Shown here: positions 274 to 32,926 of the stretch, piece by piece | How the letters are laid out: every line of letters begins with the position of its first letter | Position numbering within the stretch: position 1 is the first letter of the stretch | Source of the DNA: an uncultured Thermotogaceae bacterium | GTDB lineage: Bacteria > Thermotogota > Thermotogae > MWEM01 | DNA: 36,010 nt | Direction of reading: 5' to 3' | Assembly: GCA_964629135.1 (NCBI GenBank) | Contig: CAZVPY010000001.1 | Coordinates: forward strand, 1-36,010 | Notes under the pieces: generated by a model | Databases searched by the model: none | Told to the model about the DNA's origin: nothing | Seen by the model: the letters and a program-made list of their open reading frames with translations, nothing else | Position numbers and translations under genes: made by a program

Positions 274-290
274 TTACCCATGACTTCTCT

Positions 291-319: not shown

Positions 320-348
320 ATACTAGTATCTATAAAAGAGGTTTACTC

Positions 349-2921: not shown

Positions 2922-2940
2922 AACAAAAGGAAGTGTGATC

Positions 2941-3876: not shown

Positions 3877-4463
3877 AAGAAATCAACAACAACTTAATTT
3901 TGGAGGATAAATCCTCCAATCCTGCACCATTGGGTCTTTTAGGATTTGGGATGACTACGGTATTATTGAACTTACACAACATCGGTCTATTTCCGCTTGA
4001 TAGTGTTATTATCGCCATGGGTATCTTTGTAGGCGGAATGGCGCAGGTATTTGCGGGATTGTTGGAATGGAAAAAAGGGAATACTTTTGGCAATGTTGCT
4101 TTTACAGCCTATGGTTTGTTTTGGTTGTCATTGGTTGGGATCTGGTTATTACCAAAGTTTGAAGGCATCGCTGCTCCGTCTGATATCTCAATGGGTTTTT
4201 ACCTCTTATTATGGGGTATTTTTACTTTAGGAATGTTCTTTGGTACTTTTAAAACCAATAAGATCCTTCAGGCTGTCTTTTTGTCATTAGCACTACTCTT
4301 CTTTCTATTAAGTCTCTCTGACTTTCTCACTAGCACATTGATAAGAACGATAGGTGGATTTGTAGGCATCCTTTGCGGTAGCCTGGCCATCTATTTAGCG
4401 TTGGCTGAAGTTTTAAACGAAGCCAACAAACGAACAATCTTACCGATTTTTCCCGGAGAATAA
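3873..4463 (+). CDS. GPR1/FUN34/YaaH (SatP/AceTr) family acetate/succinate channel
   Basis: Contains the family signature 'NPAPLGLLGFGMTTVLLNLHN' and six predicted TM helices. The GTG start overlaps the upstream stop (GTGA), with AGAGGTG RBS 5 nt upstream. Confidence 0.85.
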   Translation: MKEINNNLILEDKSSNPAPLGLLGFGMTTVLLNLHNIGLFPLDSVIIAMGIFVGGMAQVFAGLLEWKKGNTFGNVAFTAYGLFWLSLVGIWLLPKFEGIAAPSDISMGFYLLLWGIFTLGMFFGTFKTNKILQAVFLSLALLFFLLSLSDFLTSTLIRTIGGFVGILCGSLAIYLALAEVLNEANKRTILPIFPGE

Positions 4464-4524
4464 TCCATTCGGTATTCAATTCAGTAATTAAAAACGTTTA
4501 AAAAAGAAGAGGAGAGTGAATACC

Positions 4525-7569: not shown

Positions 7570-7606
7570 TGGTAATAAGCTTATATTTTGGTGAAAAGGT
7601 GTGTCA

Positions 7607-8641: not shown

Positions 8642-9202
8642 ATGGCAAAAATTTTTCACCCTCACAAGGCTGATTATTTACCTTCAAAAAAACATTATTT
8701 GTTAAGAGCGGGTTTTAAAGGTATTCAAAATGAACTTGATCGAACAATGCTAAATCTTACAAATGAAATCTATCTTGAAGCTATACCTTTGGTTGAAGCT
8801 CAAATTGCTCATCTAACAATACCTGTTGTTAATGTTAGCAAAATAAAAATACCTAAAAAATTCAAAGGGATAAACCAAATCACCTATTTTATTTCTACCA
8901 TTGGAAGAAAGATTGAAGAACGTATTGAAAGATACAGCTATCTGGGAGAAACAACGAAAGCTGCTCTATTAGATGCATGGGCTTCAGAATCATTGGAAGA
9001 GTTAAATGAAAATTTTGATAAAGCTCTTCGAAAAAAACACCATAAAGGTACTATGCGCTTTTCTCCTGGCTATTCTGATTTAAACCTGACTGAAAACAAA
9101 AAAATCATTGATTTACTTGAATGTCAACTTGTTAGCGCACACCCAATTTCCGGTATGCTCTCACCACAAAAAAGCACGGTATGTATGATAGGATGGTATT
9201 AG
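8642..9202 (+). CDS. Stand-alone methionine synthase activation (AdoMet-binding, Met_synt_B12-like) domain protein
   Basis: 'MRFSPGYSDLNLTENKKIIDLL...GMLSPQKSTVCMIGW' resembles the C-terminal reactivation module of MetH. The gene lies directly upstream of metF and of a metH that lacks this module. Confidence 0.65.
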   Translation: MAKIFHPHKADYLPSKKHYLLRAGFKGIQNELDRTMLNLTNEIYLEAIPLVEAQIAHLTIPVVNVSKIKIPKKFKGINQITYFISTIGRKIEERIERYSYLGETTKAALLDAWASESLEELNENFDKALRKKHHKGTMRFSPGYSDLNLTENKKIIDLLECQLVSAHPISGMLSPQKSTVCMIGWY

Positions 9203-15136: not shown

Positions 15137-15751
15137 ATGTCTGAAATAAAAAACGACCATTATTATTCTAAATCACCTAAATCAAAATTAAAGGTCAAAC
15201 ATACAACCATTCAGTTGAAAAATGGTCACAGTTACAAATTTAAAAGTCCATCTGGGGTTTTCGCTTACGGAAAAGCAAACAGAGCCACAGAATGCTTTTT
15301 AAACAACGTTAAAATGACGGGAAAGGATTTACTGGATCTCGGGTGTGGGTATGGAACAGTAGGAATAGTCACGAGAAAAGAAAACCCCTTCATTCGTTTA
15401 TTTATGAGCGATATCAACGAAAGGGCTGTTAGGTTTGCGAAAGAAAACGCTTTAAACTACAATCTTGATGCTGAAATTAAGTGGGGTAATCTATTTGAAC
15501 CCTGGAAGGATTACATGTTTGATATGATATTTTTTAACCCACCACTGGCAGCTGGAAAAGAAGTTTGGATGGATGCAGTCAAACATTCTTATAATCATAT
15601 TAGAGAAAACGGAACTATTCAAATTGTAGCTTACCATAATAAAGGCGGAAAGAGAATCATGTTGTATATGAAAGAAGTCTTTTCAAATGTAAAAACCCTC
15701 GTTAAAAGTGGTGGCATAAGAGTCTATTTATCTGTAAGGTTAAACCAATGA
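15137..15751 (+). CDS. Class I SAM-dependent methyltransferase (MTS / RsmC-like small-domain family)
   Basis: SAM motif I 'LLDLGCGYGTVGIV' and motif IV 'IFFNPPL'; about 200 aa. Confidence 0.7.
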   Translation: MSEIKNDHYYSKSPKSKLKVKHTTIQLKNGHSYKFKSPSGVFAYGKANRATECFLNNVKMTGKDLLDLGCGYGTVGIVTRKENPFIRLFMSDINERAVRFAKENALNYNLDAEIKWGNLFEPWKDYMFDMIFFNPPLAAGKEVWMDAVKHSYNHIRENGTIQIVAYHNKGGKRIMLYMKEVFSNVKTLVKSGGIRVYLSVRLNQ

Positions 15752-16794
15752 AGAAAACGGTCGTCTTCTTTTACGTATTATTGGGAATCATTCTCACTGG
15801 AATCCTTTTATTTCTTCTGTTAGAAAGAGAAGAAAAGCTAAAAATAAGCTATTCGATTCAAAACACAAATAGCATTCAAAACCTTGAAAATAATGCTACC
15901 ATATACGAAGGGATTCTAAACGATACTCGTTTATCCATGAGCCGTTTAGATTATGAGATTAATTATTTTGAGACTCACACAGATTTTGAAAAACTTTTAA
16001 ATAATACAGTAAAATCCCGGGCATCAAATGTAGTAATATGCGATTTTGAAAAACAAGAGACCTATGAGGCGTTTTTAAGGACAAATAATTATACTTCACC
16101 ATTATATATTACAACTTATGTTGGTGATAGGATTATTGATAATCAGCAGAAGGACATACTTTATCTTTTTCCGACTTCAGAAGTAATAGCGAATGCCATT
16201 AATCATTTGTTTGGTTTAAATGATAATCACAAAATTCTGTTAATCAACAATCAAGTAAATACACAAAGAAATGCCGTTTTTCAAGAACAGTTAAAGGGTC
16301 AAAAAACAACTGTAAAAGTTATAGAAGAAAATAAATTTCAAGAAACCATTAACACAATTGGTGATACTCTTTCCCAAGCAAATCCTGACTATATTTTAAT
16401 TGACCTGAATGAAAAATCAACCATAGCATTATTAGAAAAGATTGTCGGCTTTCCAAGGGATAAAATCATCTTAATGTTTGAAAACACCAGTGATCGAGTT
16501 GCATATTATACTGGATCTAATTCTTATGGTGTAAATGGTATCACTTTTAAAAATCCTACTCAAATAAAGAAGTTTGATAACAAAACGAGTCTTTTAAAAA
16601 TGGTCACTCAAACAATTACTGATTGTTTTATAGAATACAAAAAAACCGACATAAAACATTTAAAAGAATATTTGTATGAGAACCCTAACACACCGTTTCA
16701 ACTTAAGGATCAATCCATAAGTACACCTATTTATAAAGTGACTTTTACGGATCAAGGGTTAAGGGTTATAGATAAAATGGATGCTTTGAAATGA
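15748..16794 (+). CDS. Hypothetical membrane-anchored exported protein
   Basis: The ATG overlaps the upstream stop (ATGA). An N-terminal TM/signal anchor 'VVFFYVLLGIILTGILLFLLL' is present. I recognise no family; the periplasmic-binding-protein-like idea is only a guess. Confidence 0.5.
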   Translation: MKKTVVFFYVLLGIILTGILLFLLLEREEKLKISYSIQNTNSIQNLENNATIYEGILNDTRLSMSRLDYEINYFETHTDFEKLLNNTVKSRASNVVICDFEKQETYEAFLRTNNYTSPLYITTYVGDRIIDNQQKDILYLFPTSEVIANAINHLFGLNDNHKILLINNQVNTQRNAVFQEQLKGQKTTVKVIEENKFQETINTIGDTLSQANPDYILIDLNEKSTIALLEKIVGFPRDKIILMFENTSDRVAYYTGSNSYGVNGITFKNPTQIKKFDNKTSLLKMVTQTITDCFIEYKKTDIKHLKEYLYENPNTPFQLKDQSISTPIYKVTFTDQGLRVIDKMDALK

Positions 16795-22402: not shown

Positions 22403-23224
22403 TTGAGTTACAAAACAGTAGTTCTTGATATTGACGGGACGGTATTAGATGATAAATTGAGAATTTCCGACAAAACTGTCAATCTATTGAGAAAGATCAA
22501 CAAGAAAGGGATAACTATCATTTTTTGCACAGGAAGAATGCTGGGATCGGCTAAGCATATTATTGAAAAATATTTCGAAAGTGATAAATTTCCAATAGTA
22601 AGTTATAATGGCAGCTTAATAACGCTACCCGATAGAGAAACCCCCATCTTTCACCATTTTATTGAGGGAATTACTGCAATAAAAATAATTGAATACCTCA
22701 GAAGAAAGAAATGTCACCGTCAAGTTTATATTAACAATCAATTGATTGTTGAAGAAGATAATGATCAAATTAAGAATTATGCTGTACATGCAGGTATGGA
22801 TTATCACGTAGTTGATAATCTCACTGACCTAATCAAAAGCGGTGAAAAAGTTGATAAAATACTAGCTATCGGAAAACCTGATTTCCTCGCTGATATTGAA
22901 AAAGAAAGTCAGTCCCTTTTTTCTAATAAAGCGAATATTTTCAAATCTTTTTCCATCTATCTTGATTACATACCGAAAACTACAAACAAAGGCATTGCCG
23001 TTTTGGAACTTCTAAATTATCTTCATTTAGATCCAAAAAAGGCTATTATGATAGGAGACGGTGATAATGATATTTTTGCATTTGAAGTGGTGGGTTATTC
23101 CATTGCTATGGCCAATGCAACCGAAAAACTCAAGCAAACTGCAGATCTTTGCCTTGAAAAAACCAACAATGAAGAAGGCGTTTACCACATTCTCGATCAT
23201 ATTTTTTCTGATCTGCTCAATTAG
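22403..23224 (+). CDS. Cof-type HAD-IIB family hydrolase
   Basis: 'VVLDIDGTVLD' (DxDGT motif I), 'GIGDGDNDI' motif IV ('MIGDGDNDIFAF') and a cap domain. The start is TTG, with AAAGGAG RBS 8 nt upstream. Confidence 0.85.
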   Translation: MSYKTVVLDIDGTVLDDKLRISDKTVNLLRKINKKGITIIFCTGRMLGSAKHIIEKYFESDKFPIVSYNGSLITLPDRETPIFHHFIEGITAIKIIEYLRRKKCHRQVYINNQLIVEEDNDQIKNYAVHAGMDYHVVDNLTDLIKSGEKVDKILAIGKPDFLADIEKESQSLFSNKANIFKSFSIYLDYIPKTTNKGIAVLELLNYLHLDPKKAIMIGDGDNDIFAFEVVGYSIAMANATEKLKQTADLCLEKTNNEEGVYHILDHIFSDLLN

Positions 23225-24041
23225 TTTCTCAGAAAACATTATCATAACCGATACCGGTTATTCAATCTATTACCCCGATTCACCGTATTTTTTAGAGAAT
23301 GTTTCTTCCTTCTCTTTGGGAAGCGTTACCGATCCGGAGCTCTTGTTTGAATTTGGTTTATTACTGGCACAAAGGGCAAAGAAAGCAAATGCTCATGCAT
23401 GCGTAATTGGCTATTCCCAATTGCTCCCTAAAGAAATCGATTCCATAAAGGGACATTTTGATGAGTCAATAGCACCTTTTTTTTCAATAAACCCTTTTAA
23501 AGCATCGCAAGTCATTGAATGGATAACCAACGGGTTAACCGCGGGGGGAATTTTCCCGGTTTTAAGTGCAAAATTCGGATTAAACGATTCTCTCATTCAA
23601 AATTTAAAATATCGGAAGATCTTTCCCGCCATCTTGCTTGAATCTCATAGCGGTAACGAACAAACACTAAAAGAATTAAAACTGGCTATTATAGAAGATT
23701 CCGGTCATATTTCTTATTATCCCAATCTGTTAAAAAAACTTGATTGGGCATGGCATCAACAACTACAAGATGAGGAAGGGTTGAGAAGAAAATTATTGAT
23801 AGCGTCAATCATCCGATTAAAAAAAAGATTTACTTTAAAGGCTTTCGAAATTTTCCATACACACTTAGGCTCTGCAATAACAGATCGATCTGTTGTTTTT
23901 GTCAAGGATCCAAGAATTATTAATATGAACAAATTTTCCACCGGTTATCTGATTCACTCAACAGAAGATTTTATGTTGGAAAGAATCCGTTTAATTTGCA
24001 CAGAAATTTATTATGCCAGGGGGAGCATAAATTGGAGATGA
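23169..24041 (+). CDS. Hypothetical secreted protein
   Basis: The first in-frame ATG with a signal peptide ('MKKAFTTFSIIFFLICSISFS') is at 23169, 56 nt inside the HAD gene. 'SLGSVTDPELLFEFGLLLAQRAKKAN' has a weak GH3/NagZ-like flavour, too weak to call. The stop overlaps the rsuA start (ATGA). Confidence 0.45.
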   Translation: MKKAFTTFSIIFFLICSISFSENIIITDTGYSIYYPDSPYFLENVSSFSLGSVTDPELLFEFGLLLAQRAKKANAHACVIGYSQLLPKEIDSIKGHFDESIAPFFSINPFKASQVIEWITNGLTAGGIFPVLSAKFGLNDSLIQNLKYRKIFPAILLESHSGNEQTLKELKLAIIEDSGHISYYPNLLKKLDWAWHQQLQDEEGLRRKLLIASIIRLKKRFTLKAFEIFHTHLGSAITDRSVVFVKDPRIINMNKFSTGYLIHSTEDFMLERIRLICTEIYYARGSINWR

Positions 24042-24742
24042 GACTTGATAAACACCTTTCTAATTCAGGTTATGGTACAAGAAGTGAAATTAAAAGGCTG
24101 ATAAAAAAAGGTGTTGTATCTGTGAATGGAGAGGTTTGCAAGAACCCTTCATATAAAGTATCATTAACTTCACCGATCGCCCTTTTTTCAAAGCAAATAA
24201 CTTCCAAACCGATAAGTACCATTATGCTCAATAAACCAAAAGATTATGTCTCTTCAAATGAAAACGAAGCTGGTTATCCATCAGTTTTTGAATTAATCCA
24301 ACCACCACACCCCAAATACGCCATTGCCGGTAGGTTGGATGTTGACACCACCGGTTTATTGATTCTTAGTACCCAAGGAAATTTGATACATTCCATTATC
24401 TCGCCGTCAAAAGACATTACGAAAACATACATAGCAAAGGTCATTCATTTCAAAACAGAATCTATTTCAGCTTTTTATGAAGGTATGTCTATTGCAGAAG
24501 ATTTTGTAACCAAGCCAGTCACACATCTTCGCGTTTTAGAAGAAAAAAATGAAATGACAACACTTAGTATTGGTATAACCGAAGGTAAATTTCATCAGGT
24601 GAAAAGAATGTTCCAATTTGTCCAGGCGAAAGTGATTGATCTAAAAAGAGTCGCTATTGGTTCTCTTCAGTTAGATCCTTCTCTTGAGTACGGAGATTAC
24701 AAAGAACTTGCTCCAAATGAAATCCGGCTTATCTTTCAATAA
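24038..24742 (+). CDS. rsuA: Pseudouridine synthase, RsuA/RluB family (S4 domain + catalytic domain)
   Basis: S4 domain 'MRLDKHLSNSGYGTRSEIKRLIKKGVVSVNGE', catalytic 'GRLDVDTTGLLILS' and 'GKFHQVKRM' are present. ATG 24038 overlaps the upstream stop. Confidence 0.85.
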   Translation: MRLDKHLSNSGYGTRSEIKRLIKKGVVSVNGEVCKNPSYKVSLTSPIALFSKQITSKPISTIMLNKPKDYVSSNENEAGYPSVFELIQPPHPKYAIAGRLDVDTTGLLILSTQGNLIHSIISPSKDITKTYIAKVIHFKTESISAFYEGMSIAEDFVTKPVTHLRVLEEKNEMTTLSIGITEGKFHQVKRMFQFVQAKVIDLKRVAIGSLQLDPSLEYGDYKELAPNEIRLIFQ

Positions 24743-24813
24743 TCGAAAAGCTAAAATGCTTTCATATGTTAAAATAGTAAAAATGATTCAAAATTAATGC
24801 GTTGGAGGACAAG

Positions 24814-25902
24814 ATGGCTCACGAACAATTACTTGATGATATAAAAAAAATGCATAACGATTATTTAAGGCTAAGCGAGCAACAAACGCATTTTCTTTCC
24901 ACTAGACTTAAGACTAGAATAGAACTCCGTTTTAAAAAAGACTTTTTAAAAAAAATCAACGATAAAAAGAAGCTTGAAAAGGCCGTTCACAGAAATATCA
25001 ACTCAACTTATCAAGTTTCTTGGTCGAGAATAAACAGTTTGCCATATGATAAAGAAAAAGATTCGATGGAGCTTTACCGTTCTTGGCTTTTCAATATTAG
25101 TCTTGACATTTTGTTATTAAAGCTTATAAACGGACATAAAGAATCCGGTATGAAAGAATTTTATAGAATTTATAACCTTCCGGTTAAATCCTATATTGCA
25201 AAAAATCTTTATGGGAAAAAGGGAACGGAATATTTTAATACTAAATGTCATGATTTGATGATGGAGAGTTTCCAGAGATTTGAACGTTACATAACGAATT
25301 TTTCACCTTTCAAAGGAACGCTTTTTAGTTATTTGATATCCATTGCGGATCATTTAATCAAAGATCAAACTACACAACCTGAAACTCTCATCTCGGAATT
25401 TAATGAACAAGACGAAGAAGAAAGGGGCAGTGTGTTCTGGGCTGTCTCATCTGATCCCTCTCCCGATAAGCTTCAAGAGAAATTTGCTTTTGAACGATAC
25501 TTGCTGGAACAAATTATAGCCGAGGGTGGATACCCTTGGCAAGTATTAGTGGTGTTGTTTACCAAAACGACGAACGATAGGACTGATATAACAAAATTGG
25601 AAGATTTAACCTTATCAGAACTTTATCAGAAGATGACACAAGAGTTTACAATTTGTTCTTTCCATGATGAAAAAGAATTAGCTGAGCTTTTCAAACCTTT
25701 AAAAGCCCAACTAAACCAACATTTAAGTGAAATTATTCCAACTAAAGACCATCGATCAAGAATACATGTTGAAAACTATCTAACCTACAGATTGGGAGAA
25801 TTGCCATTGAAAGTTTTTTTCGGGAAAGACCCTTTAAAAAACATACGTGACTGGAATCACCGACTTTTTAAAAGGGTTAGAAAAAAAGTTCTTGAAGATT
25901 AA
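24814..25902 (+). CDS. Divergent sigma-70/ECF-like protein (region-2-like core, ~100-aa N-terminal extension, long C-terminal part)
   Basis: 'LLKLINGHKESGMKEFYRIYNLPVKSYIAKNL...CHDLMMESFQRFERYITNFSPFKGTLFSYLISIADHLIKD' follows the ECF region 2 pattern (GD..AF.ELY..Y...V..Y......AEDL.QE.F........F......F..WL..IA.N...D). The C-terminal 'NIRDWNHRLFKRVRKKV' resembles the end of region 4. GGAGG RBS lies 5 nt before the ATG at 24814. Region 4 is not confidently identified. Confidence 0.5.
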   Translation: MAHEQLLDDIKKMHNDYLRLSEQQTHFLSTRLKTRIELRFKKDFLKKINDKKKLEKAVHRNINSTYQVSWSRINSLPYDKEKDSMELYRSWLFNISLDILLLKLINGHKESGMKEFYRIYNLPVKSYIAKNLYGKKGTEYFNTKCHDLMMESFQRFERYITNFSPFKGTLFSYLISIADHLIKDQTTQPETLISEFNEQDEEERGSVFWAVSSDPSPDKLQEKFAFERYLLEQIIAEGGYPWQVLVVLFTKTTNDRTDITKLEDLTLSELYQKMTQEFTICSFHDEKELAELFKPLKAQLNQHLSEIIPTKDHRSRIHVENYLTYRLGELPLKVFFGKDPLKNIRDWNHRLFKRVRKKVLED

Positions 25903-25972
25903 TACTTCACGCGACATATTAAAAATAACGGAGTATTAACTTTTGATTAGAAAAAAACTGCGAGGTGTTAAC

Positions 25973-26749
25973 ATGAACAAACACTTAACTGGGGAAGAAA
26001 TAGAACAATATATTGATTCAGAATATCTTCACGTACTAAAAGAGGTAGAATTGTCTGAAGATGATGAAAATCTTCATCTTTCAACCTTGAAAACTGAAGA
26101 GATCCTCAAAATTGAAGAACATCTTCTTAAGTGTGATACGTGTCTTGAAAAAGTAACGAAAGCATTAGATTTCTCACTTTCTTTTTATCAATGGTTAGAA
26201 GAGAGTCCCAGTGCAGAACAAAAAATGTTGTTAAGAATCCTTAAAGCGTCTCAGTCTGAAGAAAGTGATGTGAAAAAACGGATCCTAAATTGGATGAAGG
26301 ATTGGCAAACCTTTGTTGACAATACGGTAGATGTTTTTTTGGATACAACATATAAGGGTCTATCAAATATAACAAAACTGATTGCAAAAGACACGATGAC
26401 AAAAGAAACAAAATGGTCTTTTAAATATCCAATCGAGTCATTTGCAATGAGAGGAAATCCTAATCTCAATTTTGAAAAAAAAGTTGAAAATAAGCTCTAT
26501 GGACAAATTGGAGGAAAAGATATTCTTGAAATAAAAGCGCAATCGAAGGATAAAAAGATAACTATCAACTGTAAAAATATTGATAATACCGATTCGTCTC
26601 CAATATTCTTGCTTTTACCATTAACCGGGGGAGATCCAATCATAAAATTAGCACGACAGATAAAAAATGAAGATGATTATGAAATTTCAATCGAAGGAAT
26701 ACATCCAGGACATTATCTATTGGCCATTGAACCTGATCACAACCAATAA
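25973..26749 (+). CDS. Soluble zinc-anti-sigma (ZAS, zf-HC2)-like protein
   Basis: 'LTGEEIEQYIDSEY...IEEHLLKCDTCLEKV' contains H50-X3-C54-X2-C57, the HX3CX2C anti-sigma motif. No TM helix is present. GAGGTG RBS precedes the ATG at 25973. The gene lies immediately downstream of the sigma-like gene. Confidence 0.5.
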   Translation: MNKHLTGEEIEQYIDSEYLHVLKEVELSEDDENLHLSTLKTEEILKIEEHLLKCDTCLEKVTKALDFSLSFYQWLEESPSAEQKMLLRILKASQSEESDVKKRILNWMKDWQTFVDNTVDVFLDTTYKGLSNITKLIAKDTMTKETKWSFKYPIESFAMRGNPNLNFEKKVENKLYGQIGGKDILEIKAQSKDKKITINCKNIDNTDSSPIFLLLPLTGGDPIIKLARQIKNEDDYEISIEGIHPGHYLLAIEPDHNQ

Positions 26750-26760
26750 AAGGGAGCATT

Positions 26761-29721
26761 ATGGAAAACGCTCACATTGGAAAAATCATTAAAAAGATGC
26801 AAGACTTCGCAAAAAACAAAGATTTGAACGGTTTTAAAGAATTTACAAAACGAGTGATCCAAAAAAATCTTTTAAATAATCAGCTTAATTATTCTTCAAA
26901 AAGAGCGCTTATTAAAGCGATCAATGAAATCAACCTGTTTTTCGCTGATTTTAACAAAAACGAAGAAATCTTGTTGCATCTAATTGAACAAGAAAAGAAA
27001 GGCCAGAATGAAAATCAAGATTACATTGCTTTCCTAACCAATCTCGTTGGAGAATTATACTACTTCAAAGGACAATACCAACTTGCACTGGAAAATTATC
27101 AAAAATCCTTGGAAATTAGATATCAACTCTATGGAGACTCTCATCCTGATACCGTTGAATGTTATTCAAATCTGGCTTTTTTATATACGGAAATGGGTCG
27201 TTTAAGAGAAGCTGAGGACCTTTTTATGCTGGCGTTAAAAGCATATGAAAGCAAAATCAGTGGACATATTCAGGAATATGTTACCACCATTTGGAATGCG
27301 GGCTTAATGTACCAATATTGGGGCAAATATTCTTTAGCAATGGAAAAATATTTAACCGCAATGGAAATTTCTCAATTAAACGACACAAGTGAATTAACAG
27401 ACAGCATAGAGAATAATCTTGGTGTCCTTTATCTTGAAACTGGTAATTATCAAGCAGCTGAACAATATCTTCAAAAATCAACTAAATTGACATTACAGCA
27501 TTATGGAATAAATCATCCAAAGACCATTATTACTCTTAACACCCTTGTTTCCGCACAGATGAATTTAGAAAAACTTGAAAAGGCTGAAAAGGGATTCTTA
27601 CAGTTACAACAAACAAAAAAAACAAACATGCCAATCATTTCCATAAAGATTAAGATCAATTATGCAGTCTTCTTAATAAAAACTGGAAAGACACAAGAAG
27701 CCTTGGTTTTACTCAAAGAATGTCTTGCAAAAAAATCAACGCCTGAAACGCGGATTAAAATCTTTTCGCATATAGCAAAAATACAAGTTATTCATAAGGA
27801 AGAAGATAAAGCCTTTGAAACTGTTAAAAAGGCACTCTTTTATCAGAAAAAAGTGATTGGTAGAAGGCATATACAATACACAAAACTTTTAGGATTGTTA
27901 GGACTAATATTAATTAATCAGAACAAAAAAGAAGAAGCTTTTAAAACACTTATTGAATCTACCCAATTACAAAATGAAATCTTACTGCAGGTTTCCACCT
28001 CATTTTCAAAGGATTATGCTTGGAATTTTCTTCAAAAAATTAAAAGTGAAATGAACGAACTTCTGAGCTTATTTCATATTTTACAGAAAGAAAGTACCCC
28101 TGAGAACCCGATAACTCAACAATACATACAGGAAGTTTATGAAATTTTACTCAAAAGAAAAGCGGTCGTTTTTGACGCGGGGGTTGAGCGTTATCATCAA
28201 ATCTTAAAAAAAAGAGACCCCGACTTAAAAAGGCTTTTTGAAAAACTTGTGAAAATGAAAGAAGAAATCGTGCTGAGAACAACAAAAGGCTATTTTTCTG
28301 AAAGTCCAGAGGAAAACCAAATAAAGCTGAACGAATTAATTTCTAAAACCGAAATCTTGGAAAACAGGATATCAACGGTAGTCCCTATTTATACACATGA
28401 GTTAAAAACCAAACAGGCAACATTGCAGCTTTTAAAAAGCAAAATTCATGAAAAGACTTTATTTGTTGATATACATAAGTTTCATTTTTCTGATTTTTTC
28501 ATTCAGGAAGAAAACCAACAAAAAGAAGGTTATATCATATTCTATCTTCAAAAAAACAAAACTGAATTTCTCTTTGTTGAAGATGCAGAAGAAATAGACA
28601 AACTTATAAAAAAAACAGATTCAACAAACGATATCCAGAATAGGGGTGTTATCAACAATTCTTATAGCAATGGTCAGGAATTAAAACCTGAATCAGCCCT
28701 CAGTAAACTTTGGCATGTGCTTTTTGGAGCTCAAGATATTTTCAATAATTCAGATTTAGACTCTATTTGTTTTTCTCCAGATGGTGAATTCTTCAATCTC
28801 CCATTTGAATCCTTAATTTGCGAAAATGGGGCATATTTGATAGAAAATTACACAGTACAATATATTAATTCCGGGAGACAATTAATATATGAAACGTTCA
28901 ATCAAAACAATAATGATACATTTATGATTTTTGCAGATCCACTTTTTGAAATAAAAAATAATGTGAAAACTTCAAATAAGAAAAGCAATCATAGAAGCAA
29001 CCACACGCTACTCAGGAATGATTTAGGTAATTTTCCTCAATTACCAGGAACTGCGTCTGAAGCAGAAGAAATTATTAAAGTTTTGAAAAAAAATCATATC
29101 AGCTCAACCTCGTTATCCACTCATGAATCAGTTAATGACCGTGAACTAAAAAAAATAGACTCTCCGAAAATCTTACATTTTGCTACTCATGGATTTTACC
29201 TTGAAAACCAAGTAGATATTCATCCATTTTATCGGTGCGGTATCGCCTTAAGTGGCATTAACAATGTTTTAAAAGGAGAACAGATACCCTCTATTTATGA
29301 AGATGGTATGCTTACGGGTATGGACATTTTATCTCTAAACCTGGTTGACACGGAAATCGTTGTGCTTTCTGCTTGCAAAACAGGACGTGGGCAAATAGCC
29401 GCTGGAGAAGGTGTAATGGGGTTATGCTCAGCGTTAATTGCTTCAGGCGTATCATCAGTTATGGTGAGTCTTTGGAATGTACCGGATATTTTCACAGTAC
29501 GTTTAATGTCATCTTTTTATGAGAATCTCGTTGCTGGAATGAAAAAGTCTGAAGCTTTGAAAACTTCGAAACAAAAATTGATTCAATCATTAAGATCCCA
29601 ATGGGGAGAAGCGCCTTCTTGGATTTGGGGTGGATTCATACTGTATGGTGATGATTCATCATTAAAGGACATTTCTACTCTTTCTAACATTGATACAGTT
29701 GCTCATGGTGAAAAGAATTGA
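26761..29721 (+). CDS. TPR-repeat + CHAT-domain (caspase-fold) protease
   Basis: N-terminal TPR_12-type repeats ('YYFKGQYQLALENYQKSLEIRYQLYGDSHPDTVECYSNLAFLYTEMGRLREAEDLF'). C-terminal CHAT domain with the catalytic dyad context 'ILHFATHGFY' (His810) and 'VVLSACKTGRG' (Cys872). Confidence 0.85.
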   Translation: MENAHIGKIIKKMQDFAKNKDLNGFKEFTKRVIQKNLLNNQLNYSSKRALIKAINEINLFFADFNKNEEILLHLIEQEKKGQNENQDYIAFLTNLVGELYYFKGQYQLALENYQKSLEIRYQLYGDSHPDTVECYSNLAFLYTEMGRLREAEDLFMLALKAYESKISGHIQEYVTTIWNAGLMYQYWGKYSLAMEKYLTAMEISQLNDTSELTDSIENNLGVLYLETGNYQAAEQYLQKSTKLTLQHYGINHPKTIITLNTLVSAQMNLEKLEKAEKGFLQLQQTKKTNMPIISIKIKINYAVFLIKTGKTQEALVLLKECLAKKSTPETRIKIFSHIAKIQVIHKEEDKAFETVKKALFYQKKVIGRRHIQYTKLLGLLGLILINQNKKEEAFKTLIESTQLQNEILLQVSTSFSKDYAWNFLQKIKSEMNELLSLFHILQKESTPENPITQQYIQEVYEILLKRKAVVFDAGVERYHQILKKRDPDLKRLFEKLVKMKEEIVLRTTKGYFSESPEENQIKLNELISKTEILENRISTVVPIYTHELKTKQATLQLLKSKIHEKTLFVDIHKFHFSDFFIQEENQQKEGYIIFYLQKNKTEFLFVEDAEEIDKLIKKTDSTNDIQNRGVINNSYSNGQELKPESALSKLWHVLFGAQDIFNNSDLDSICFSPDGEFFNLPFESLICENGAYLIENYTVQYINSGRQLIYETFNQNNNDTFMIFADPLFEIKNNVKTSNKKSNHRSNHTLLRNDLGNFPQLPGTASEAEEIIKVLKKNHISSTSLSTHESVNDRELKKIDSPKILHFATHGFYLENQVDIHPFYRCGIALSGINNVLKGEQIPSIYEDGMLTGMDILSLNLVDTEIVVLSACKTGRGQIAAGEGVMGLCSALIASGVSSVMVSLWNVPDIFTVRLMSSFYENLVAGMKKSEALKTSKQKLIQSLRSQWGEAPSWIWGGFILYGDDSSLKDISTLSNIDTVAHGEKN

Positions 29722-32072
29722 TTAAAGAACATTCAATTTCTGTAAGAGACCTGATAGGTTTCCTATACAGATCTGGTAATCTTGATAATAGATTCAATGC
29801 CCCAGATCTCTCAGAAAGAGGAAAAATTGGAGTAAAAGCACATAAAAAGATACAACAGCAATATGAAGAAAATTTCCCCGGACAATTTGAAAGTGAAGTC
29901 TATCTCAGTTGCTCTTTTGAAGAAAAGGACCTATTAATATCCATTTTTGGAAGAGCTGATGGTATTCACAGAAATGGTAATGAAGTAACCGTTGATGAGA
30001 TAAAAACCACTCGTGTTTCTTTAGAAGATATCTCGGAACTTTTGGACCAAAATCATCTCAGGCAATGTATGTGCTATGGTTACATGGTTTTAAAAAAGGA
30101 AAAACTGAAAAAAATAAACTTGAGAATTACATATTATAATATAGACAACGATAAAATGAAACACCTTTCATTCAGCTATTCAAAAGAACAACTTACACAG
30201 TTTATCCTTGAACTTAAAGAACAATACAGTCAATGGCTATCAATAAAAGATGAGTGGCTTAATGAAAGAAATCAATCTATCAAAACTCTTCATTTTCCAT
30301 TTGAACAATTCAGAGATGGGCAAAGAAAATTTTCTGTTATGGTATACCACGCCATTAAAGACCAAAAAAAACTTTTTGCTCAAGCTCCAACAGGAACCGG
30401 TAAAACCTTAGCAACACTGTTTCCAGCTTTAAAAGCAATTGGAAAAGAGCTTGCCGGACCGATCTTTTATCTCACATCCAAAACAATCACCAGACAAGCT
30501 GTTGAAAATACCTTAAATCTCTTGAGATCAAAGGGGTTGAAGCTTAAGTCTATTATCATAACCGCTAAAGAAAAGATGTGTATTAACAATGAGTTTAAAT
30601 GCAATCCTTACAACTGTCCATTTGCAAAGGGCCATTTTGATAGAATAAATAATGCTTTAAAAGATTTTGTTGCCTTAGATGGACATTTTAATGTTGATAG
30701 AATTCAAGAACACGCCCAACTTCACCAAGTTTGTCCCTATGAACTTGCATTGGATTTGTCAGAATTTACAGATTGTATTATCTGCGATTATAACTATTTG
30801 TTTGATCCAAGAGCATATTTCAGAAGGTATTTTGAAGAAAAGGGAAAATATATATTCCTTGTGGATGAGGCTCACAATCTTCCAGATAGGGCCAGAGATA
30901 TGTATTCCTCTCAATTATCACTAAAAACACTTAGAGAATTGAAGGGTTTTGCGAAAAAAAGTGATTCAAAAATTGCTAAATGCACAAGAAAATTGGATAC
31001 TGAAGCTTCCTTTTATTTCCTTAATGAAAAACCGGAAGAAAAATGGTCTGTAAAAGATTCTCCTCAAGATCTCAAAGAACCTTTGGAAGATCTGTTAAGA
31101 GAAATAGCAGCATATCTGATGACTCCGGGTTATGATTCTTCGAAGGAACAATTAACTAATTATTTTTTTGACTTAAACGCCTTTAACAGTAACATGGAAA
31201 GATATAACGACCATTATATTTCTATCTTTGATGCAAAAAACGAATTAATGACTTTATATTGTGTTGATCCATCCAATCATATCAAAGATATGTTGGAAAA
31301 AGGCAAGTCTTGTGTGCTTTTTTCTGCCACTTTATCTCCTTTAGATTATTATAAGCAACTTTTTGGTGCCACAAAAGATGATTATTCACTGATTTTAAAA
31401 TCTCCCTTTAATCAACAAAAGCTATGTATGCTTGTAAATCCAAAGATTTCAACCAAATACAACGCAAGAAAATACTCTGCTGAGGCTATTGTTCGGAATA
31501 TCCATTTAACTACAAGGCATCGCGGCAATTACATGGTCTTTTTTCCATCATATCAATATATGGAATTGATCTATAATGCCTTCGTTAAAAAACACCCTAC
31601 TATTCAAACCAGCAAACAAACCCCCTATATGAGTGAAAGACAACGTGAATCCTTTTTAGAATCCTTCAAACACTCTCCTGAAAAAACATTTGTGGGATTT
31701 GTGCTGATGGGAGGAATTTTTGGAGAGGGCATTGATTTAATTGGAAGTCGGTTAAGCGGAGCTATCATTGTTGGTGTGGGATTACCGCAAATTGGTTTTG
31801 ATAGAGATATTATCAAAGACTATTATCAGAAAAAAATTGGAAAAGGCTGGGAATATGCCTACATCATTCCAGGTGCCAATAAAGTAATGCAAGCTGTGGG
31901 AAGAGTCATTCGTTCACATGAAGATAAAGGAGTAGTTATGCTCATTGATGAAAGGTTTATTCATAAACCTTATCCTTCTATATTTCCTGCAGACTGGGCG
32001 CATGCAATAAGCGTAAGAAATGAAGGAGAGATAAAAAGGATTCTAAAAGACTTTTGGAACCAAGCCTTTTAA
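29718..32072 (+). CDS. PD-(D/E)XK (RecB/Cas4-type) nuclease domain fused to an XPD/DinG-family Fe-S superfamily-2 helicase
   Basis: N-terminal domain: 'GRADGI' (D81), 'VDEIKTT' (D93-E94-x-K96) and Q116xxxY120. Helicase domain: Walker A 'APTGTGKT' (223-230), four Cys (288, 295, 300, 339) between Walker A and DEAH (383-386), and C-terminal 'QAVGRVIRS'. The TTG start overlaps the CHAT stop (TTGA). Confidence 0.8.
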   Translation: MIKEHSISVRDLIGFLYRSGNLDNRFNAPDLSERGKIGVKAHKKIQQQYEENFPGQFESEVYLSCSFEEKDLLISIFGRADGIHRNGNEVTVDEIKTTRVSLEDISELLDQNHLRQCMCYGYMVLKKEKLKKINLRITYYNIDNDKMKHLSFSYSKEQLTQFILELKEQYSQWLSIKDEWLNERNQSIKTLHFPFEQFRDGQRKFSVMVYHAIKDQKKLFAQAPTGTGKTLATLFPALKAIGKELAGPIFYLTSKTITRQAVENTLNLLRSKGLKLKSIIITAKEKMCINNEFKCNPYNCPFAKGHFDRINNALKDFVALDGHFNVDRIQEHAQLHQVCPYELALDLSEFTDCIICDYNYLFDPRAYFRRYFEEKGKYIFLVDEAHNLPDRARDMYSSQLSLKTLRELKGFAKKSDSKIAKCTRKLDTEASFYFLNEKPEEKWSVKDSPQDLKEPLEDLLREIAAYLMTPGYDSSKEQLTNYFFDLNAFNSNMERYNDHYISIFDAKNELMTLYCVDPSNHIKDMLEKGKSCVLFSATLSPLDYYKQLFGATKDDYSLILKSPFNQQKLCMLVNPKISTKYNARKYSAEAIVRNIHLTTRHRGNYMVFFPSYQYMELIYNAFVKKHPTIQTSKQTPYMSERQRESFLESFKHSPEKTFVGFVLMGGIFGEGIDLIGSRLSGAIIVGVGLPQIGFDRDIIKDYYQKKIGKGWEYAYIIPGANKVMQAVGRVIRSHEDKGVVMLIDERFIHKPYPSIFPADWAHAISVRNEGEIKRILKDFWNQAF

Positions 32073-32143
32073 TACTCTAACGTTGCTTTGCTCTTGTAAA
32101 ATAGAATTTAGTTAAATAACGAAATCGCCAGAAAGGAGTCAAA

Positions 32144-32926
32144 ATGAAAATTTTCATATTAGGTGCGGGAAAAATGGGTAAATGGTTTGCAGAGGAATTA
32201 AACCATGATCATGAAGTTGCTATTTTTGATTGGGATTCAAAACAGATGAAACATCTCTTTAATGTGAAACGATTTAAAGAAATTCAAGAGATAAAGGTTT
32301 ATAACCCTGAACTTGTCATCAATTGTGTAAGTCTTAATAATACGGTCAAAGCCTTCCAAGAAATTGAGCCCTTTATCTCTGATTCAACGATACTTTCTGA
32401 CATAACATCAGTAAAATACGGTTTAGAAGATTATTATAAAAAAAACAGTCAACATCCTTTCGTTTCAACTCACCCAATGTTTGGCCCTACATTTGCAAAT
32501 ATCAACAATTTAACCTCAGAAAATGCGGTTATTATAAAAGAATCGGATGAATTTGGGAAAAAGTTTTTCACAAAATTTTTCTCCTCTCTAAAATTGAATA
32601 TCTATGAATACTCATTTGAAGAACATGATAAAACCATGGCATATTCTCTGGCAACACCCTTTATCTCATCATTGGTTTTTGGTGGGTGCTTAGAAGAAAA
32701 GGCAGTTCCGGGTACAACATTTAAAAAACAAATGCACATCACCCAGAATCTTATGCGTGAAGACGATTATTTACTTTCTGAAATTCTCTTCAATCCATAT
32801 ACTGTAAAGCAAATTGAACGCATACATTTACAATTGTCATCCCTAGCAGAAATTATTGAAAAAAGAGACTTTAAAGCTATGAAAAAATACTTGGATAACG
32901 TTCGTAGAAATATCAATAACACTTAA
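32144..32926 (+). CDS. tyrA: Prephenate dehydrogenase family protein
   Basis: N-terminal 'MKIFILGAGKMGKWF' dinucleotide fold, plus 'DITSVK' and 'FVSTHPMFGP', which are characteristic of prephenate/arogenate dehydrogenases. Confidence 0.7.
   Translation: MKIFILGAGKMGKWFAEELNHDHEVAIFDWDSKQMKHLFNVKRFKEIQEIKVYNPELVINCVSLNNTVKAFQEIEPFISDSTILSDITSVKYGLEDYYKKNSQHPFVSTHPMFGPTFANINNLTSENAVIIKESDEFGKKFFTKFFSSLKLNIYEYSFEEHDKTMAYSLATPFISSLVFGGCLEEKAVPGTTFKKQMHITQNLMREDDYLLSEILFNPYTVKQIERIHLQLSSLAEIIEKRDFKAMKKYLDNVRRNINNT

What the first reader, a model, noticed from the sequence alone, without database searches (positions are those of the whole stretch)
24767..32072. Four-gene cassette: sigma-like factor, soluble ZAS-like partner, TPR-CHAT protease and nuclease-helicase; a possible CRISPR-independent protease-to-sigma signalling or defence module
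Seen in the sequence: four consecutive + strand genes with almost no spacing.
- Sigma-like ORF at 24814-25902, followed by a 70-nt gap.
- HX3CX2C protein at 25973-26749, followed by an 11-nt gap.
- A 986-aa TPR+CHAT protein at 26761-29721.
- A 784-aa nuclease-helicase whose TTG start (29718) overlaps the CHAT stop (TTGA).
- The block is bracketed by unrelated housekeeping genes: rsuA upstream, and the tyrA-like gene and gpsA downstream.

Established knowledge: CHAT domains are caspase-fold His/Cys proteases. In type III-E CRISPR loci a TPR-CHAT protease (Csx29), bound to Cas7-11/gRAMP, cleaves Csx30. Csx30 sequesters an ECF sigma factor (RpoE), so RNA sensing is converted into a transcriptional response.

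Inference: this cassette has the same logical parts, namely a sigma factor, a sigma-partner-type protein and a TPR-CHAT protease. It has no Cas7-11 and no array, and a nuclease-helicase sits where a nucleic-acid sensor or effector would be. I propose that the CHAT protease cleaves the ZAS-like protein and so releases the sigma-like factor. The analogy is architectural. I cannot show sequence homology to Csx30 or RpoE by eye.
Basis: partly seen in the sequence, partly recalled or inferred. Interest (0 to 1): 0.85.

Follow-up and report, generated by a model that had tools for sequence, protein, structure and literature searches.

The report
Protease-gated sigma/anti-sigma switch, CRISPR-free
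Three adjacent genes encode a divergent sigma factor, a soluble zinc-finger anti-sigma protein and a caspase-like TPR-CHAT protease; they stay together across distant relatives and look like an undescribed, CRISPR-independent "cut the inhibitor, free the sigma" switch, while the fourth gene is a known DNA nuclease-helicase that joins them only in this lineage.

Summary
The first is a very divergent ECF-like sigma factor. Its own sequence misses Pfam, but 20 of 24 family members hit Sigma70_r2, the family profile matches RpoE by hhalign (97.5%), and its AF2 model retrieves almost only ECF sigmas. The second is a soluble protein with invariant H4/H50/C54/C57 (ZAS-type HX3CX2C) and a C-terminal beta-sandwich. 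The third is a cytoplasmic TPR-CHAT protease with an invariant His810/Cys872 dyad. This order (sigma, ZAS, TPR-CHAT) recurs in orthologues from 9 GTDB species. It also recurs in nearly all of 21 metagenomic loci that are only 25-38% identical and sit in unrelated contexts, so the trio is a real module. The fourth gene is an EndoDinG (PDB 9KQH, E 3e-150). It follows the trio only in the window's own sub-lineage and is absent from every more distant trio. There are no cas genes, no array and no defence island; the surroundings are core housekeeping genes. The best model is that CHAT cleaves the anti-sigma, possibly at an invariant Arg160 in a disordered loop, and so releases the sigma. The closest known systems are Craspase/Csx30/CASP-sigma and DdvS/DdvA. 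I rate it a new variant of a known kind. Mechanism, trigger and regulon are inferred, not shown.

The parts
24767..24775 (+). Extended -10-like box TGTTAAAAT, about 40 nt upstream of the sigma gene; probably the housekeeping-type promoter of the operon.
   Evidence: The box TATGTTAAAATAGTAA occurs once in the window, with 0 expected by chance. A TGnTAnAAT box lies at the same place in 10 of the 11 orthologous upstream regions shown, including those with a different upstream gene (L013 has TGATAGAAT). A GGAGGA ribosome-binding site sits at 24803-24808.
24814..25902 (+). Divergent ECF-like sigma factor, 362 aa. Proposed layout: N-terminal extension about 1-94, sigma2 about 95-186, acidic disordered linker 190-214, sigma4-like helices about 217-281, C-terminal extension 282-362 ending in a basic helix KNIRDWNHRLFKRVRKK.
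   Evidence: The window copy has no Pfam hit. Sixteen of 17 orthologues and 20 of 24 wider family members hit Sigma70_r2, best E 9.4e-10. hhalign of the family profile against E. coli RpoE gives 97.5% probability, E 8e-12. The AF2 model has pLDDT 76.6, and its Foldseek PDB hits are almost all ECF sigmas, e.g. sigmaE region 2, 4lup, TM 0.79, rmsd 1.8 A.
25973..26749 (+). Soluble ZAS-type anti-sigma candidate, 258 aa. The N-terminal helical domain carries H4...H50-X3-C54-X2-C57. A variable insert covers residues 19-40. The C-terminal half is a beta-sandwich (about 118-254).
   Evidence: H4, H50, C54 and C57 are invariant in 21 sequences down to about 25% identity. zf-HC2 is hit by 7 of 12 N-terminal domains, best E 1.9e-4; the window copy scores E 0.12. 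There is no hydrophobic segment (maximum KD19 1.19). The AF2 model has pLDDT 60.9 and Foldseek gives only generic Ig/FN3/CBM-like hits.
26420..26455 (+). Conserved linear motif F150-x-Y-P-x-E-S-F-A-M-R160-G161 in the ZAS protein. R160 (26450-26452) is the candidate P1 residue of a CHAT cleavage site.
   Evidence: R160 is invariant in all 21 ZAS proteins, and F150 is nearly so (leucine in one sequence, L024). The segment 151-172 has pLDDT below 50. The role as a cleavage site is inference only.
26761..29721 (+). Cytoplasmic TPR-CHAT caspase-like protease, 986 aa. TPR array about 76-400, helical middle region 400-645, CHAT domain 646-964 (nt 28696-29652). Catalytic H810 is at nt 29188-29190 and C872 at nt 29374-29376.
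   Evidence: PF12770 at E 1.9e-56; TPR_12 at 2.3e-33. The ATHG and SAC motifs are invariant in 9 orthologues. The N-terminus is hydrophilic and no TM segment lies outside the CHAT core.
29718..32072 (+). EndoDinG: an N-terminal PD-(D/E)XK nuclease fused to an XPD/DinG-type Fe-S 5'-3' helicase, 784 aa. It is a neighbour specific to this lineage and probably co-transcribed. It is not part of the conserved trio.
   Evidence: Full-length match to Finegoldia magna FmaDinG, PDB 9kqh, E 3e-150, residues 2-760 against 2-747. GRADG...DEIK, the four Fe-S cysteines, GTGKT and DEAH are all present in the alignment. The family is described in PMC13650095. The gene is absent after CHAT in L005/L014 and in all distant trios.

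Best explanation
The functional unit is three genes, not four.

The parts:
- A divergent ECF-like sigma factor.
- Its cognate cytoplasmic anti-sigma factor. This has an N-terminal zinc-binding ZAS-type domain, which would clamp the sigma, and a C-terminal beta-sandwich.
- A cytoplasmic TPR-CHAT (caspase/separase-fold) protease.

Proposed mechanism:
1. In the resting state the anti-sigma holds the sigma inactive, and the CHAT dyad is inactive.
2. An unknown signal, probably a protein ligand or a conformational cue read by the roughly 640-residue TPR/helical region, activates the CHAT domain.
3. CHAT cuts the anti-sigma. The most likely site is the invariant Arg160 in the conserved but disordered loop between the ZAS domain and the beta-sandwich.
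4. The cut anti-sigma is destabilised and the sigma is freed to redirect RNA polymerase.

The operon itself is read from a housekeeping-type extended -10 promoter. The EndoDinG nuclease-helicase downstream is a DNA-processing enzyme that became operonic with the trio in this sub-lineage. It may be a passenger or a local output, but it is not a conserved component.

Shown here: the identities of the domains, the invariant catalytic and metal-binding residues, the soluble topology, the co-conservation of the trio, and the non-conservation of the helicase. Inferred: sigma/anti-sigma binding, cleavage and its site, the trigger, and the regulon.
For: Sigma fold:
- Family-level Sigma70_r2 hits.
- hhalign against RpoE at 97.5% probability.
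- Foldseek hits almost exclusively to ECF sigmas, several in complex with their anti-sigmas.

Anti-sigma:
- H4/H50/C54/C57 are invariant.
- zf-HC2 is hit by 7 of 12 N-terminal domains.
- The gene lies directly downstream of the sigma gene in every locus.

Protease:
- CHAT at E 1.9e-56 with the dyad invariant.

Co-conservation:
- The same gene order occurs in 9 GTDB species.
- It also occurs in 21 metagenome loci whose three proteins are only about 25-38% identical to the window's (26%, 25% and 27%). These loci sit in unrelated contexts and their GC content ranges from 35 to 53%.

Candidate cleavage site:
- An invariant Arg lies in a low-confidence loop.
- Separases, which are CHAT-type proteases, cut after Arg, as reviewed in PMC11506125.

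Precedents:
- Csx29 cleaves Csx30 and so releases CASP-sigma (PMC10028731).
- DdvA fuses a ZAS domain to a TPR-CHAT domain (PMC11506125).
- CalpL/CalpT/CalpS, and PCaspase with PCc-sigma.
Against: - No interaction or cleavage was tested. No multimer modelling was available.
- The window's own sigma and ZAS sequences are below Pfam thresholds. A profile of the ZAS domain finds no anti-sigma in the PDB.
- The ZAS model is of low confidence (pLDDT 60.9).
- No Sigma70_r4 hit was found, so the -35-binding element is ambiguous.
- No ECF-type autoregulated promoter was found.
- ZAS domains can release their sigma through thiol oxidation alone, so the protease may not be the releasing step.
- The tight coupling of CHAT and helicase in 8 species is not explained by a passenger model.
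Confidence: 0.55

Rival explanations
1. Pro-sigma processing. The CHAT protease cuts the sigma itself, removing the roughly 94-residue N-terminal extension or the C-terminal extension. The ZAS protein would then be an independent input, for example a redox sensor, or an adaptor.
For: The sigma carries conserved N- and C-terminal extensions that canonical ECF sigmas lack. PCaspase cleaves a predicted sigma factor in a type III-B system. ECF54 sigmas are proposed to be controlled by neighbouring CHAT or other proteases without any anti-sigma (PMC8999054).
Against: No invariant basic residue or conserved linear motif was seen in the sigma's disordered linker across the wide family; only P217 of the SPD motif is invariant there. 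About 270-300-aa relatives that lack the N-terminal extension exist, and members with a shortened N-terminal region (348 aa, L028 and L029) still keep the ZAS gene next to them. The best conserved disordered motif lies in the ZAS protein.
Confidence: 0.13
2. A redox (thiol/zinc) switch with the protease as output or reset. Oxidation of the HX3CX2C site releases the sigma, as in RsrA/SigR. The TPR-CHAT protein would then be a co-expressed effector, or would clear damaged anti-sigma. In this anaerobe lineage the Fe-S EndoDinG downstream would be a DNA-repair output.
For: The ZAS ligands are invariant. The hosts are MAGs from anaerobic habitats, and EndoDinG hosts are mostly anaerobes with an oxidation-sensitive Fe-S cluster (PMC13650095). 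The helicase start is tightly coupled to the CHAT stop in 8 species. A two-pronged ZAS plus CHAT mechanism was proposed for DdvA.
Against: This does not explain why a large TPR-CHAT protease, rather than any other gene, is kept next to the sigma/ZAS pair in nearly all distant loci that lack a helicase. Many ZAS anti-sigmas are not redox-responsive (established knowledge). The invariant Arg loop is left unexplained.
Confidence: 0.15
3. One reading: the nuclease-helicase is the nucleic-acid sensor or effector of a defence system and activates, or is activated by, the CHAT protease.
For: The stop and start overlap or lie within 20 nt in all 8 helicase-bearing orthologous loci. This holds even where both flanks have been rearranged (L001, L012, L013). 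DinG-family helicases do serve in type IV CRISPR and other defence systems.
Against: The helicase is absent after the trio in the most divergent orthologue (L005/L014, where a transketolase follows) and in all distant trios. It evolves like the housekeeping neighbours: 60-92% identity, against 34-92% for ZAS and 40-83% for CHAT. It is a full-length EndoDinG with intact Fe-S, nuclease and ATPase motifs, a family spread over orders that lack this trio. PADLOC finds no defence hits for genes 1-3, and the genomic position is core and syntenic.
Confidence: 0.12
4. Chance adjacency of unrelated genes, with a mis-called 'sigma'.
For: The window copies of genes 1 and 2 have no significant Pfam hit on their own.
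Against: The trio order is kept at 25-38% identity in unrelated contexts. Family-level and fold evidence supports the sigma assignment.
Confidence: 0.02

Closest known systems
Type III-E Craspase: Cas7-11/gRAMP + Csx29 (TPR-CHAT) + Csx30 + CASP-sigma/RpoE (PMC10028731)
   Same: A cytoplasmic TPR-CHAT protease is encoded next to an ECF-type sigma and a soluble sigma-binding inhibitor. Cleavage of the inhibitor, in a flexible loop of its C-terminal part, relieves inhibition of the sigma.
   Different: No Cas7-11, no CRISPR array and no Csx31 are present. The inhibitor here is a ZAS-type zinc-finger protein of about 250 aa, and no match to any CRISPR-associated model, Csx30 included, was found. 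The trigger cannot be crRNA-guided RNA binding. The sigma has N- and C-terminal extensions.
DdvS/DdvA of Myxococcus xanthus (PMC11506125)
   Same: An ECF sigma, a CHCC/ZAS-type zinc-binding anti-sigma domain and a separase/craspase-type TPR-CHAT domain with a His-Cys dyad. Proteolysis of the anti-sigma by CHAT is proposed there too.
   Different: In DdvA the ZAS and TPR-CHAT parts are one transmembrane polypeptide. The CHAT domain is periplasmic and release needs RseP intramembrane proteolysis. Here they are two soluble cytoplasmic proteins with no TM segment. That paper reports DdvA-like fusions only in Myxococcota and one Comamonas. DdvS/DdvA controls a CBASS-CRISPR island, whereas here no defence genes are nearby.
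CalpL/CalpT/CalpS and SAVED-CHAT/PCaspase/PCc-sigma (type III CRISPR ancillary modules)
   Same: [quoted passage not shown]
   Different: Those proteases are activated by cyclic oligoadenylate through SAVED domains and are encoded in CRISPR loci. Here the sensor part is a TPR array and no cyclase or SAVED domain was detected.
ECF54 group, sigma genes with CHAT, subtilase or carboxypeptidase genes in their context (PMC8999054)
   Same: A predicted genomic association between an ECF sigma and a CHAT-domain protein, with proteolytic control proposed.
   Different: ECF54 is described as lacking an anti-sigma factor. Here a ZAS-type protein is always interposed. Membership in ECF54 could not be tested because no ECF Hub models were available.
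EndoDinG (FmaDinG, PDB 9KQH; PMC13650095), for gene 4 only
   Same: Full-length homology at E 3e-150: PD-(D/E)XK nuclease plus an XPD/DinG core with a 4-Cys Fe-S domain.
   Different: Nothing of note. The gene here is simply operonic with a TPR-CHAT gene, an arrangement not mentioned in the passages of that paper that I read.

Membership tests
ECF (group 4) sigma-70 family | Sigma2 domain (Sigma70_r2) | tested here: met
   The window copy is below threshold. However, 16 of 17 orthologues and 20 of 24 wider family members hit PF04542, best E 9.4e-10. hhalign against RpoE gives 97.5% probability. Foldseek aligns the model to sigmaE region 2 at TM 0.79, rmsd 1.8 A.
ECF (group 4) sigma-70 family | Sigma4 domain (Sigma70_r4/r4_2) with a -35-binding helix-turn-helix | tested here: inconclusive
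   No member hits Sigma70_r4 in Pfam. The hhalign alignment stops at the start of RpoE sigma4. Foldseek alignments of 190-210 columns to whole ECF sigmas, together with four helices at 217-281, are compatible with a sigma4-like domain.
ECF (group 4) sigma-70 family | Only sigma2 + sigma4, with no regions 1.1 or 3; about 170-200 aa | tested here: not met
   The protein is 362 aa, with a conserved extension of about 94 aa at the N-terminus and about 80 aa at the C-terminus. It is therefore ECF-like with extensions, not a minimal ECF.
ECF (group 4) sigma-70 family | Binds RNA polymerase core and directs promoter-specific initiation | not testable with these tools
   Needs biochemistry. No candidate target promoter motif was found.
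ZAS (zinc-binding anti-sigma) family | H-X3-C-X2-C motif plus an upstream His/Cys ligand in an N-terminal helical anti-sigma domain | tested here: met
   H4, H50, C54 and C57 are invariant in 21 sequences. Helices are predicted at 7-17, 41-53 and 55-65.
ZAS (zinc-binding anti-sigma) family | Profile match to zf-HC2 (PF13490) or to solved anti-sigma domains | tested here: inconclusive
   zf-HC2 is hit by 7 of 12 N-terminal domains, best E 1.9e-4; the window copy scores E 0.12, and all are below the gathering score. The profile search against the PDB finds no anti-sigma. Foldseek on the low-confidence model gives only beta-sandwich hits.
ZAS (zinc-binding anti-sigma) family | Encoded next to, and binds, its cognate sigma | tested here: inconclusive
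   Adjacency is met wherever there is enough downstream DNA, except the orphan sigma in L026. Binding is not testable here.
Type III-E CRISPR Craspase (Csx29 system) | TPR-CHAT protease with a His/Cys dyad | tested here: met
Type III-E CRISPR Craspase (Csx29 system) | Cas7-11/gRAMP effector, CRISPR array, and csx30/csx31 in the locus | tested here: not met
   PADLOC gives no CRISPR-associated match for genes 1-2 and only a non-significant Csx1 match (E 0.034) for the CHAT protein. The window has no spaced or tandem repeats of CRISPR type. All other ORFs that received a Pfam hit have ordinary housekeeping, metabolic or transport domains, and four ORFs got no hit.
DdvA-type anti-sigma | A single polypeptide: cytoplasmic ZAS domain, TM helix, periplasmic TPR-CHAT | tested here: not met
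   There are two separate ORFs with an 11-nt gap. The ZAS protein has no hydrophobic segment and the CHAT protein has no signal peptide.
EndoDinG (gene 4) | N-terminal PD-(D/E)XK nuclease fused to an XPD/DinG helicase core with a 4-Cys Fe-S domain | tested here: met
   E 3e-150 over the full length to 9kqh. GRADG/DEIK, CX6CX4C...C, GTGKT and DEAH are conserved in the alignment. PDDEXK_1, DEAD_2 and Helicase_C_2 are hit in Pfam.
Type IV CRISPR CasDinG (Csf4) (gene 4) | Meets the Csf4 model cut-off, lies in a csf locus, and has a degenerate Fe-S module | tested here: not met
   TIGR03117 scores 37 bits against a cut-off of 400. The strong PADLOC hit PDLC01439 (E 6e-127) covers only the generic DinG core. 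The Fe-S cysteines are intact, and there are no csf genes and no array.
ECF54 (sigma with CHAT in its context, no anti-sigma) | Match to the ECF54 group model; absence of an anti-sigma | not testable with these tools
   No ECF Hub models were available. The presence of a ZAS gene argues against it (for the group definition).

The most novel reading that the evidence does not exclude
The trio is the founding example of a free-standing, fully cytoplasmic caspase-like signalling pathway. A TPR-CHAT protease senses a protein cue and cuts a ZAS anti-sigma after an invariant arginine. This releases a previously unclassified sigma family with extensions at both ends. That sigma in turn switches on exported caspase (C14)-PEGA-FGE-sulfatase proteins in most lineages, and a nuclease-helicase in this one. 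This would be a protease-to-sigma-to-protease cascade independent of CRISPR or cyclic nucleotides. It may be ancestral to, or a split form of, both the Craspase and DdvA arrangements.
Probability: 0.15. Interest if true: 0.8.

Novelty: new variant of a known kind. Interest (0 to 1): 0.6.

Why it matters
Release of a sigma factor by a caspase-fold protease has so far been shown, or proposed from structure, only in two settings: inside CRISPR loci (Craspase, CalpL, PCaspase) and for the membrane-spanning DdvA fusion.

A soluble three-protein version with no CRISPR, no cyclic-nucleotide sensor and no membrane step would show that TPR-CHAT control of an anti-sigma is a general bacterial signalling design. 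It would also give a small, tractable system of three soluble proteins, with an obvious catalytic mutant and a candidate P1 residue. Such a system could be used to ask what activates a stand-alone TPR-CHAT protease.

It also flags a sigma family that standard Pfam thresholds miss: about 135 clusters at 50% identity. All of the few named members checked come from uncultured MAGs labelled Thermotogota.

Tried and rejected
- Single-sequence Pfam, NCBIfam and PDB searches of genes 1 and 2 gave nothing significant. An A1 profile against the PDB gave only a weak BldN hit at E 0.18.
- A ZAS-domain profile against the PDB gave no anti-sigma hit; the top matches were Mediator Med26 and Erv1, taken as chance.
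- Foldseek on the ZAS model gave only generic beta-sandwich matches, and the model is too poor to use for the N-terminal domain.
- PADLOC found no defence family for genes 1-3. I judged the CasDinG hit for gene 4 to be a generic DinG-core match.
- The consensus promoter/terminator scan of 24500-32300 found no more than chance.
- I looked by eye for a shared ECF-type promoter motif upstream of the sigma genes and the flanking caspase genes in distant loci. Only extended -10 boxes of housekeeping type were seen.
It was repeated with A5.
- Literature searches for a stand-alone sigma/ZAS/TPR-CHAT module returned only the CRISPR-linked systems, DdvA and the ECF54 remark.
- A CRISPR or type IV reading, and a mobile-island reading, were both rejected. 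There are no repeats, tRNA or integrase, and the core synteny is conserved.

Full report
**Observation**

The four + strand ORFs are exactly as described:
- 24814-25902, 362 aa. The mechanical ORF begins at TTG 24802, but 16 of the 17 homologues begin at the position of the ATG.
- 25973-26749, 258 aa.
- 26761-29721, 986 aa.
- 29718-32072, 784 aa, with a TTG start inside the TTGA stop of the CHAT gene.

The gaps are 70 nt, 11 nt and -4 nt. Base composition is flat at 31-37% GC. The window holds no tRNA, no tandem array and no CRISPR-like repeats. ORFs that received a Pfam hit elsewhere in the window have ordinary housekeeping, metabolic or transport domains: radical SAM, DUF4899, MatE, metF, metH, holB-like, PSP1, a methyltransferase, GGDEF, xseA, dxs, a HAD hydrolase, rsuA, a PDH_N/tyrA-like gene, gpsA, plsC and argF. 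Four ORFs (4516-6045, 8642-9202, 15748-16794, 23061-24041) got no hit.

**Gene 4 is a known enzyme**

The 784-aa protein matches the crystal-structure sequence of Finegoldia magna FmaDinG (PDB 9KQH) over its full length, at E 3e-150. The following are all conserved in the alignment: the nuclease motif GRADG...DEIK, the four Fe-S cysteines, Walker A GTGKT and DEAH. The PDB chain is the D75A mutant, which explains GRAAG in the target.

The paper that defines this subgroup, EndoDinG (PMC13650095), reports:
- a Mn-preferring endonuclease together with a 5'-3' helicase activity;
- a distribution over Bdellovibrionales, Eubacteriales, Tissierellales and other, mostly anaerobic, lineages.

The strong PADLOC "typeIV_DinG" hit covers only the generic DinG core. 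The curated Csf4 model scores 37 bits against a cut-off of 400.

**Gene 3**

CHAT (PF12770) scores E 1.9e-56 at residues 646-964, preceded by TPR_12 and TPR_10 repeats. H810 (in ATHG) and C872 (in SAC) are invariant in nine orthologues that go down to 35% identity. There is no signal peptide and no TM segment. A sequence search of the PDB finds only TPR proteins, with no Csx29, DdvA or separase match.

**Gene 1**

On its own the window protein misses every Pfam model. It gives only E 0.015 to two ECF NCBIfam models. At family level the evidence is clear:
- 16 of 17 close homologues hit Sigma70_r2.
- 20 of 24 members of a wider family hit it too, best E 9.4e-10.
- hhalign of that family profile against E. 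coli RpoE gives 97.5% probability and E 8e-12. The alignment runs from region 2 to the start of region 4.
- The AF2 model (pLDDT 76.6) retrieves almost only ECF sigma structures from the PDB, several of them in complex with anti-sigmas. The sigma2 superpositions reach TM 0.79 and rmsd 1.8 A.

Region 4 is not detected by sequence. From the hhalign register and the predicted helices, I place a sigma4-like four-helix unit at about 217-281. That leaves a conserved N-terminal extension (1-94) and a C-terminal extension (282-362) ending in a basic helix. This layout is inference.

**Gene 2**

H50-X3-C54-X2-C57 and an upstream H4 are invariant in 13 orthologues. They are also invariant in 21 sequences once distant relatives are added. 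zf-HC2 is hit weakly by 7 of 12 N-terminal domains, best E 1.9e-4; the window copy scores 0.12. A profile search of the PDB finds no anti-sigma.

The protein has no hydrophobic segment. Its C-terminal half is predicted as a beta-sandwich with only generic structural neighbours.

The best conserved stretch outside the zinc site is F150-x-Y-P-x-E-S-F-A-M-R160-G. It lies in a segment with pLDDT below 50. R160 is invariant in all 21 sequences, while the residues around it vary between lineages. A conserved residue in a disordered loop is what a docking or cleavage site would look like. Separase, a CHAT-type protease, cuts after Arg. This is a lead, not a result.

**Is the adjacency meaningful?**

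The sigma-like family is small. There are 17 clusters at 90% identity among 5.8 billion proteins. Nine species in the GTDB genome set carry it, and all are MAGs deposited as Thermotogota or Thermotogaceae.

In those nine species the order sigma, ZAS, CHAT is always kept. In three species (L001, L012, L013) the upstream flank is different and two aromatic amino-acid genes are inserted before tyrA.

A full HMMER scan of 1.84 billion representatives with the sigma profile found 135 clusters, 15 of them at E below 1e-30. The closest CHAT relative outside the orthologous group is P0037, at 30% identity. It also lies behind a 361-aa sigma-like gene and a 248-aa HLSECDTC gene, in a different context near infC-rpmI-rplT.

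A metagenome scan with an alignment of distant family members returned 21 loci. My own HMMs built from the three families give sigma, then ZAS with HxxxCxxC, then TPR-CHAT, in every locus with enough DNA except two:
- L026 has the sigma alone, next to type I R-M genes.
- L029 has sigma and ZAS followed by a 154-aa exported protein and a 2082-aa exported C14 caspase in place of CHAT.

The three proteins of the distant trio compared directly (L015) are 26%, 25% and 27% identical to the window's; the sigma matches across the 21 loci were 27-70% identical to the distant query P0095. The loci have GC from 35% to 53%. The trio is therefore a conserved module.

**The helicase is not part of that module**

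- It follows CHAT only in the window's own sub-lineage: 8 of 9 GTDB species, plus L031, L032 and L034.
- In the most divergent orthologue (L005/L014) a transketolase follows instead.
- None of the distant trios has it.
- It is conserved like the housekeeping neighbours. In L001, for example, identities are helicase 60% and tyrA 72%, against sigma 50%, CHAT 40% and ZAS 34%.

Against a pure passenger reading, the helicase start overlaps or lies within about 20 nt of the CHAT stop in all eight species, and this survives rearrangements on both sides. The helicase is therefore very probably co-transcribed, and it could be a local output.

**Promoter**

A TGnTAnAAT extended -10 box is conserved about 40 nt upstream of the sigma gene in 10 of the 11 orthologous upstream regions shown, including those with a different upstream gene (L013 has TGATAGAAT); in the window it is TGTTAAAAT at 24767-24775. 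Similar boxes precede several of the sigma genes and flanking genes in the distant loci. I found no ECF-type motif, so the regulon is unknown.

**Mechanism**

The best-supported model is a cytoplasmic sigma/anti-sigma pair gated by a caspase-like protease. The ZAS domain sequesters the sigma. The TPR-CHAT protein is activated by an unknown cue and cuts the anti-sigma, perhaps after R160. The sigma is then released.

Shown here: the domain identities, the invariant catalytic and metal ligands, the soluble topology and the co-conservation. Inferred: the binding, the cleavage, the trigger and the output.

The rivals are:
- cleavage of the sigma's own extensions (pro-sigma processing);
- a ZAS redox switch, with CHAT as effector or reset and EndoDinG as a repair output;

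**Comparison with known systems**

In terms of how it works, the closest systems are:
- Craspase, in which Csx29 cleaves Csx30 and frees CASP-sigma (PMC10028731);
- DdvS/DdvA, in which a ZAS domain and a TPR-CHAT domain are fused across the membrane (PMC11506125);
- CalpL/T/S and PCaspase/PCc-sigma.

It is a member of neither of the two closest, Craspase and DdvS/DdvA. There is no Cas7-11, array or Csx30, and it is not a single transmembrane polypeptide. Nor was any SAVED domain or cyclase, as in the CalpL and PCaspase systems, detected.

The ECF literature notes CHAT genes near ECF54 sigmas that lack anti-sigmas. [quoted passage not shown] Seven literature searches found no description of a stand-alone soluble sigma/ZAS/TPR-CHAT trio. 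The library does not hold all journals.

**Verdict**

The trio stands, the helicase does not belong to the conserved module, and the defence label is unsupported.
- Novelty: a new variant of a known kind.
- Interest: moderate to high for people working on bacterial signalling and caspase-like proteases.

Noticed in passing
L019 664-3654 and 8762-10536; L025 4982-7837 and 14791-16008; L028 1938-4649 (-); L035 3732-6947; L029 7405-13653; L015 11041-11517 (-): Distant sigma-ZAS-CHAT trios are repeatedly flanked by large exported Peptidase_C14 (caspase) proteins. These carry PEGA, FGE-sulfatase, WD40, PPC or fn3 domains, and all have signal-peptide-like N-termini. They may be the regulon or partners of this sigma family. 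Nothing of this kind lies near the window's trio.
   Followed up: partly
L029 4967-13653: A variant locus: sigma and ZAS are followed by a 154-aa exported protein and a 2082-aa exported protein (C14 caspase, seven PEGA domains, FGE-sulfatase) in the position where TPR-CHAT normally sits.
   Followed up: partly
L026 4445-11363: An orphan member of the sigma family with no ZAS or CHAT gene. It lies next to what look like type I restriction-modification genes (an HsdR-like 890-aa ORF and an HsdM-like 481-aa ORF), judged from the sequences only.
   Followed up: no
window 29718-32072: The PADLOC model PDLC01439 ('typeIV_DinG, CAS-IV-A associated') hits this EndoDinG at E 6e-127, although there is no type IV CRISPR context and the Fe-S cysteines are intact. 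This model could produce false CasDinG calls in automated defence annotation.
   Followed up: partly
window 23061-24041 (overlaps the HAD gene at 22403-23224): A conserved 326-aa ORF with no Pfam hit. Its real start is probably the internal MKKAFTTFSIIFFLICSISF, which looks like a signal peptide. It is syntenic between the HAD hydrolase and rsuA in the seven distinct orthologous loci that share this upstream flank (55-89% identity); L001/L012/L013 and L005/L014 have other upstream genes.
   Followed up: no
window 280-4463 and 7601-8632: Two DUF4899 paralogues lie at 1851-2921 and 7601-8632. The first sits between two radical-SAM genes (280-1854 and 2935-3876) and near a GPR1/FUN34/YaaH transporter gene. 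Their function is unknown.
   Followed up: no
window 24814-25902 and proteins P0092-P0225: The sigma-like family (135 clusters at 50% identity) is largely invisible to Pfam at curated thresholds. All of the few named members checked come from MAGs labelled Thermotogota, and only one cluster carries the name 'sigma factor'. Shorter relatives of about 270-300 aa lack the N-terminal extension.
   Followed up: partly
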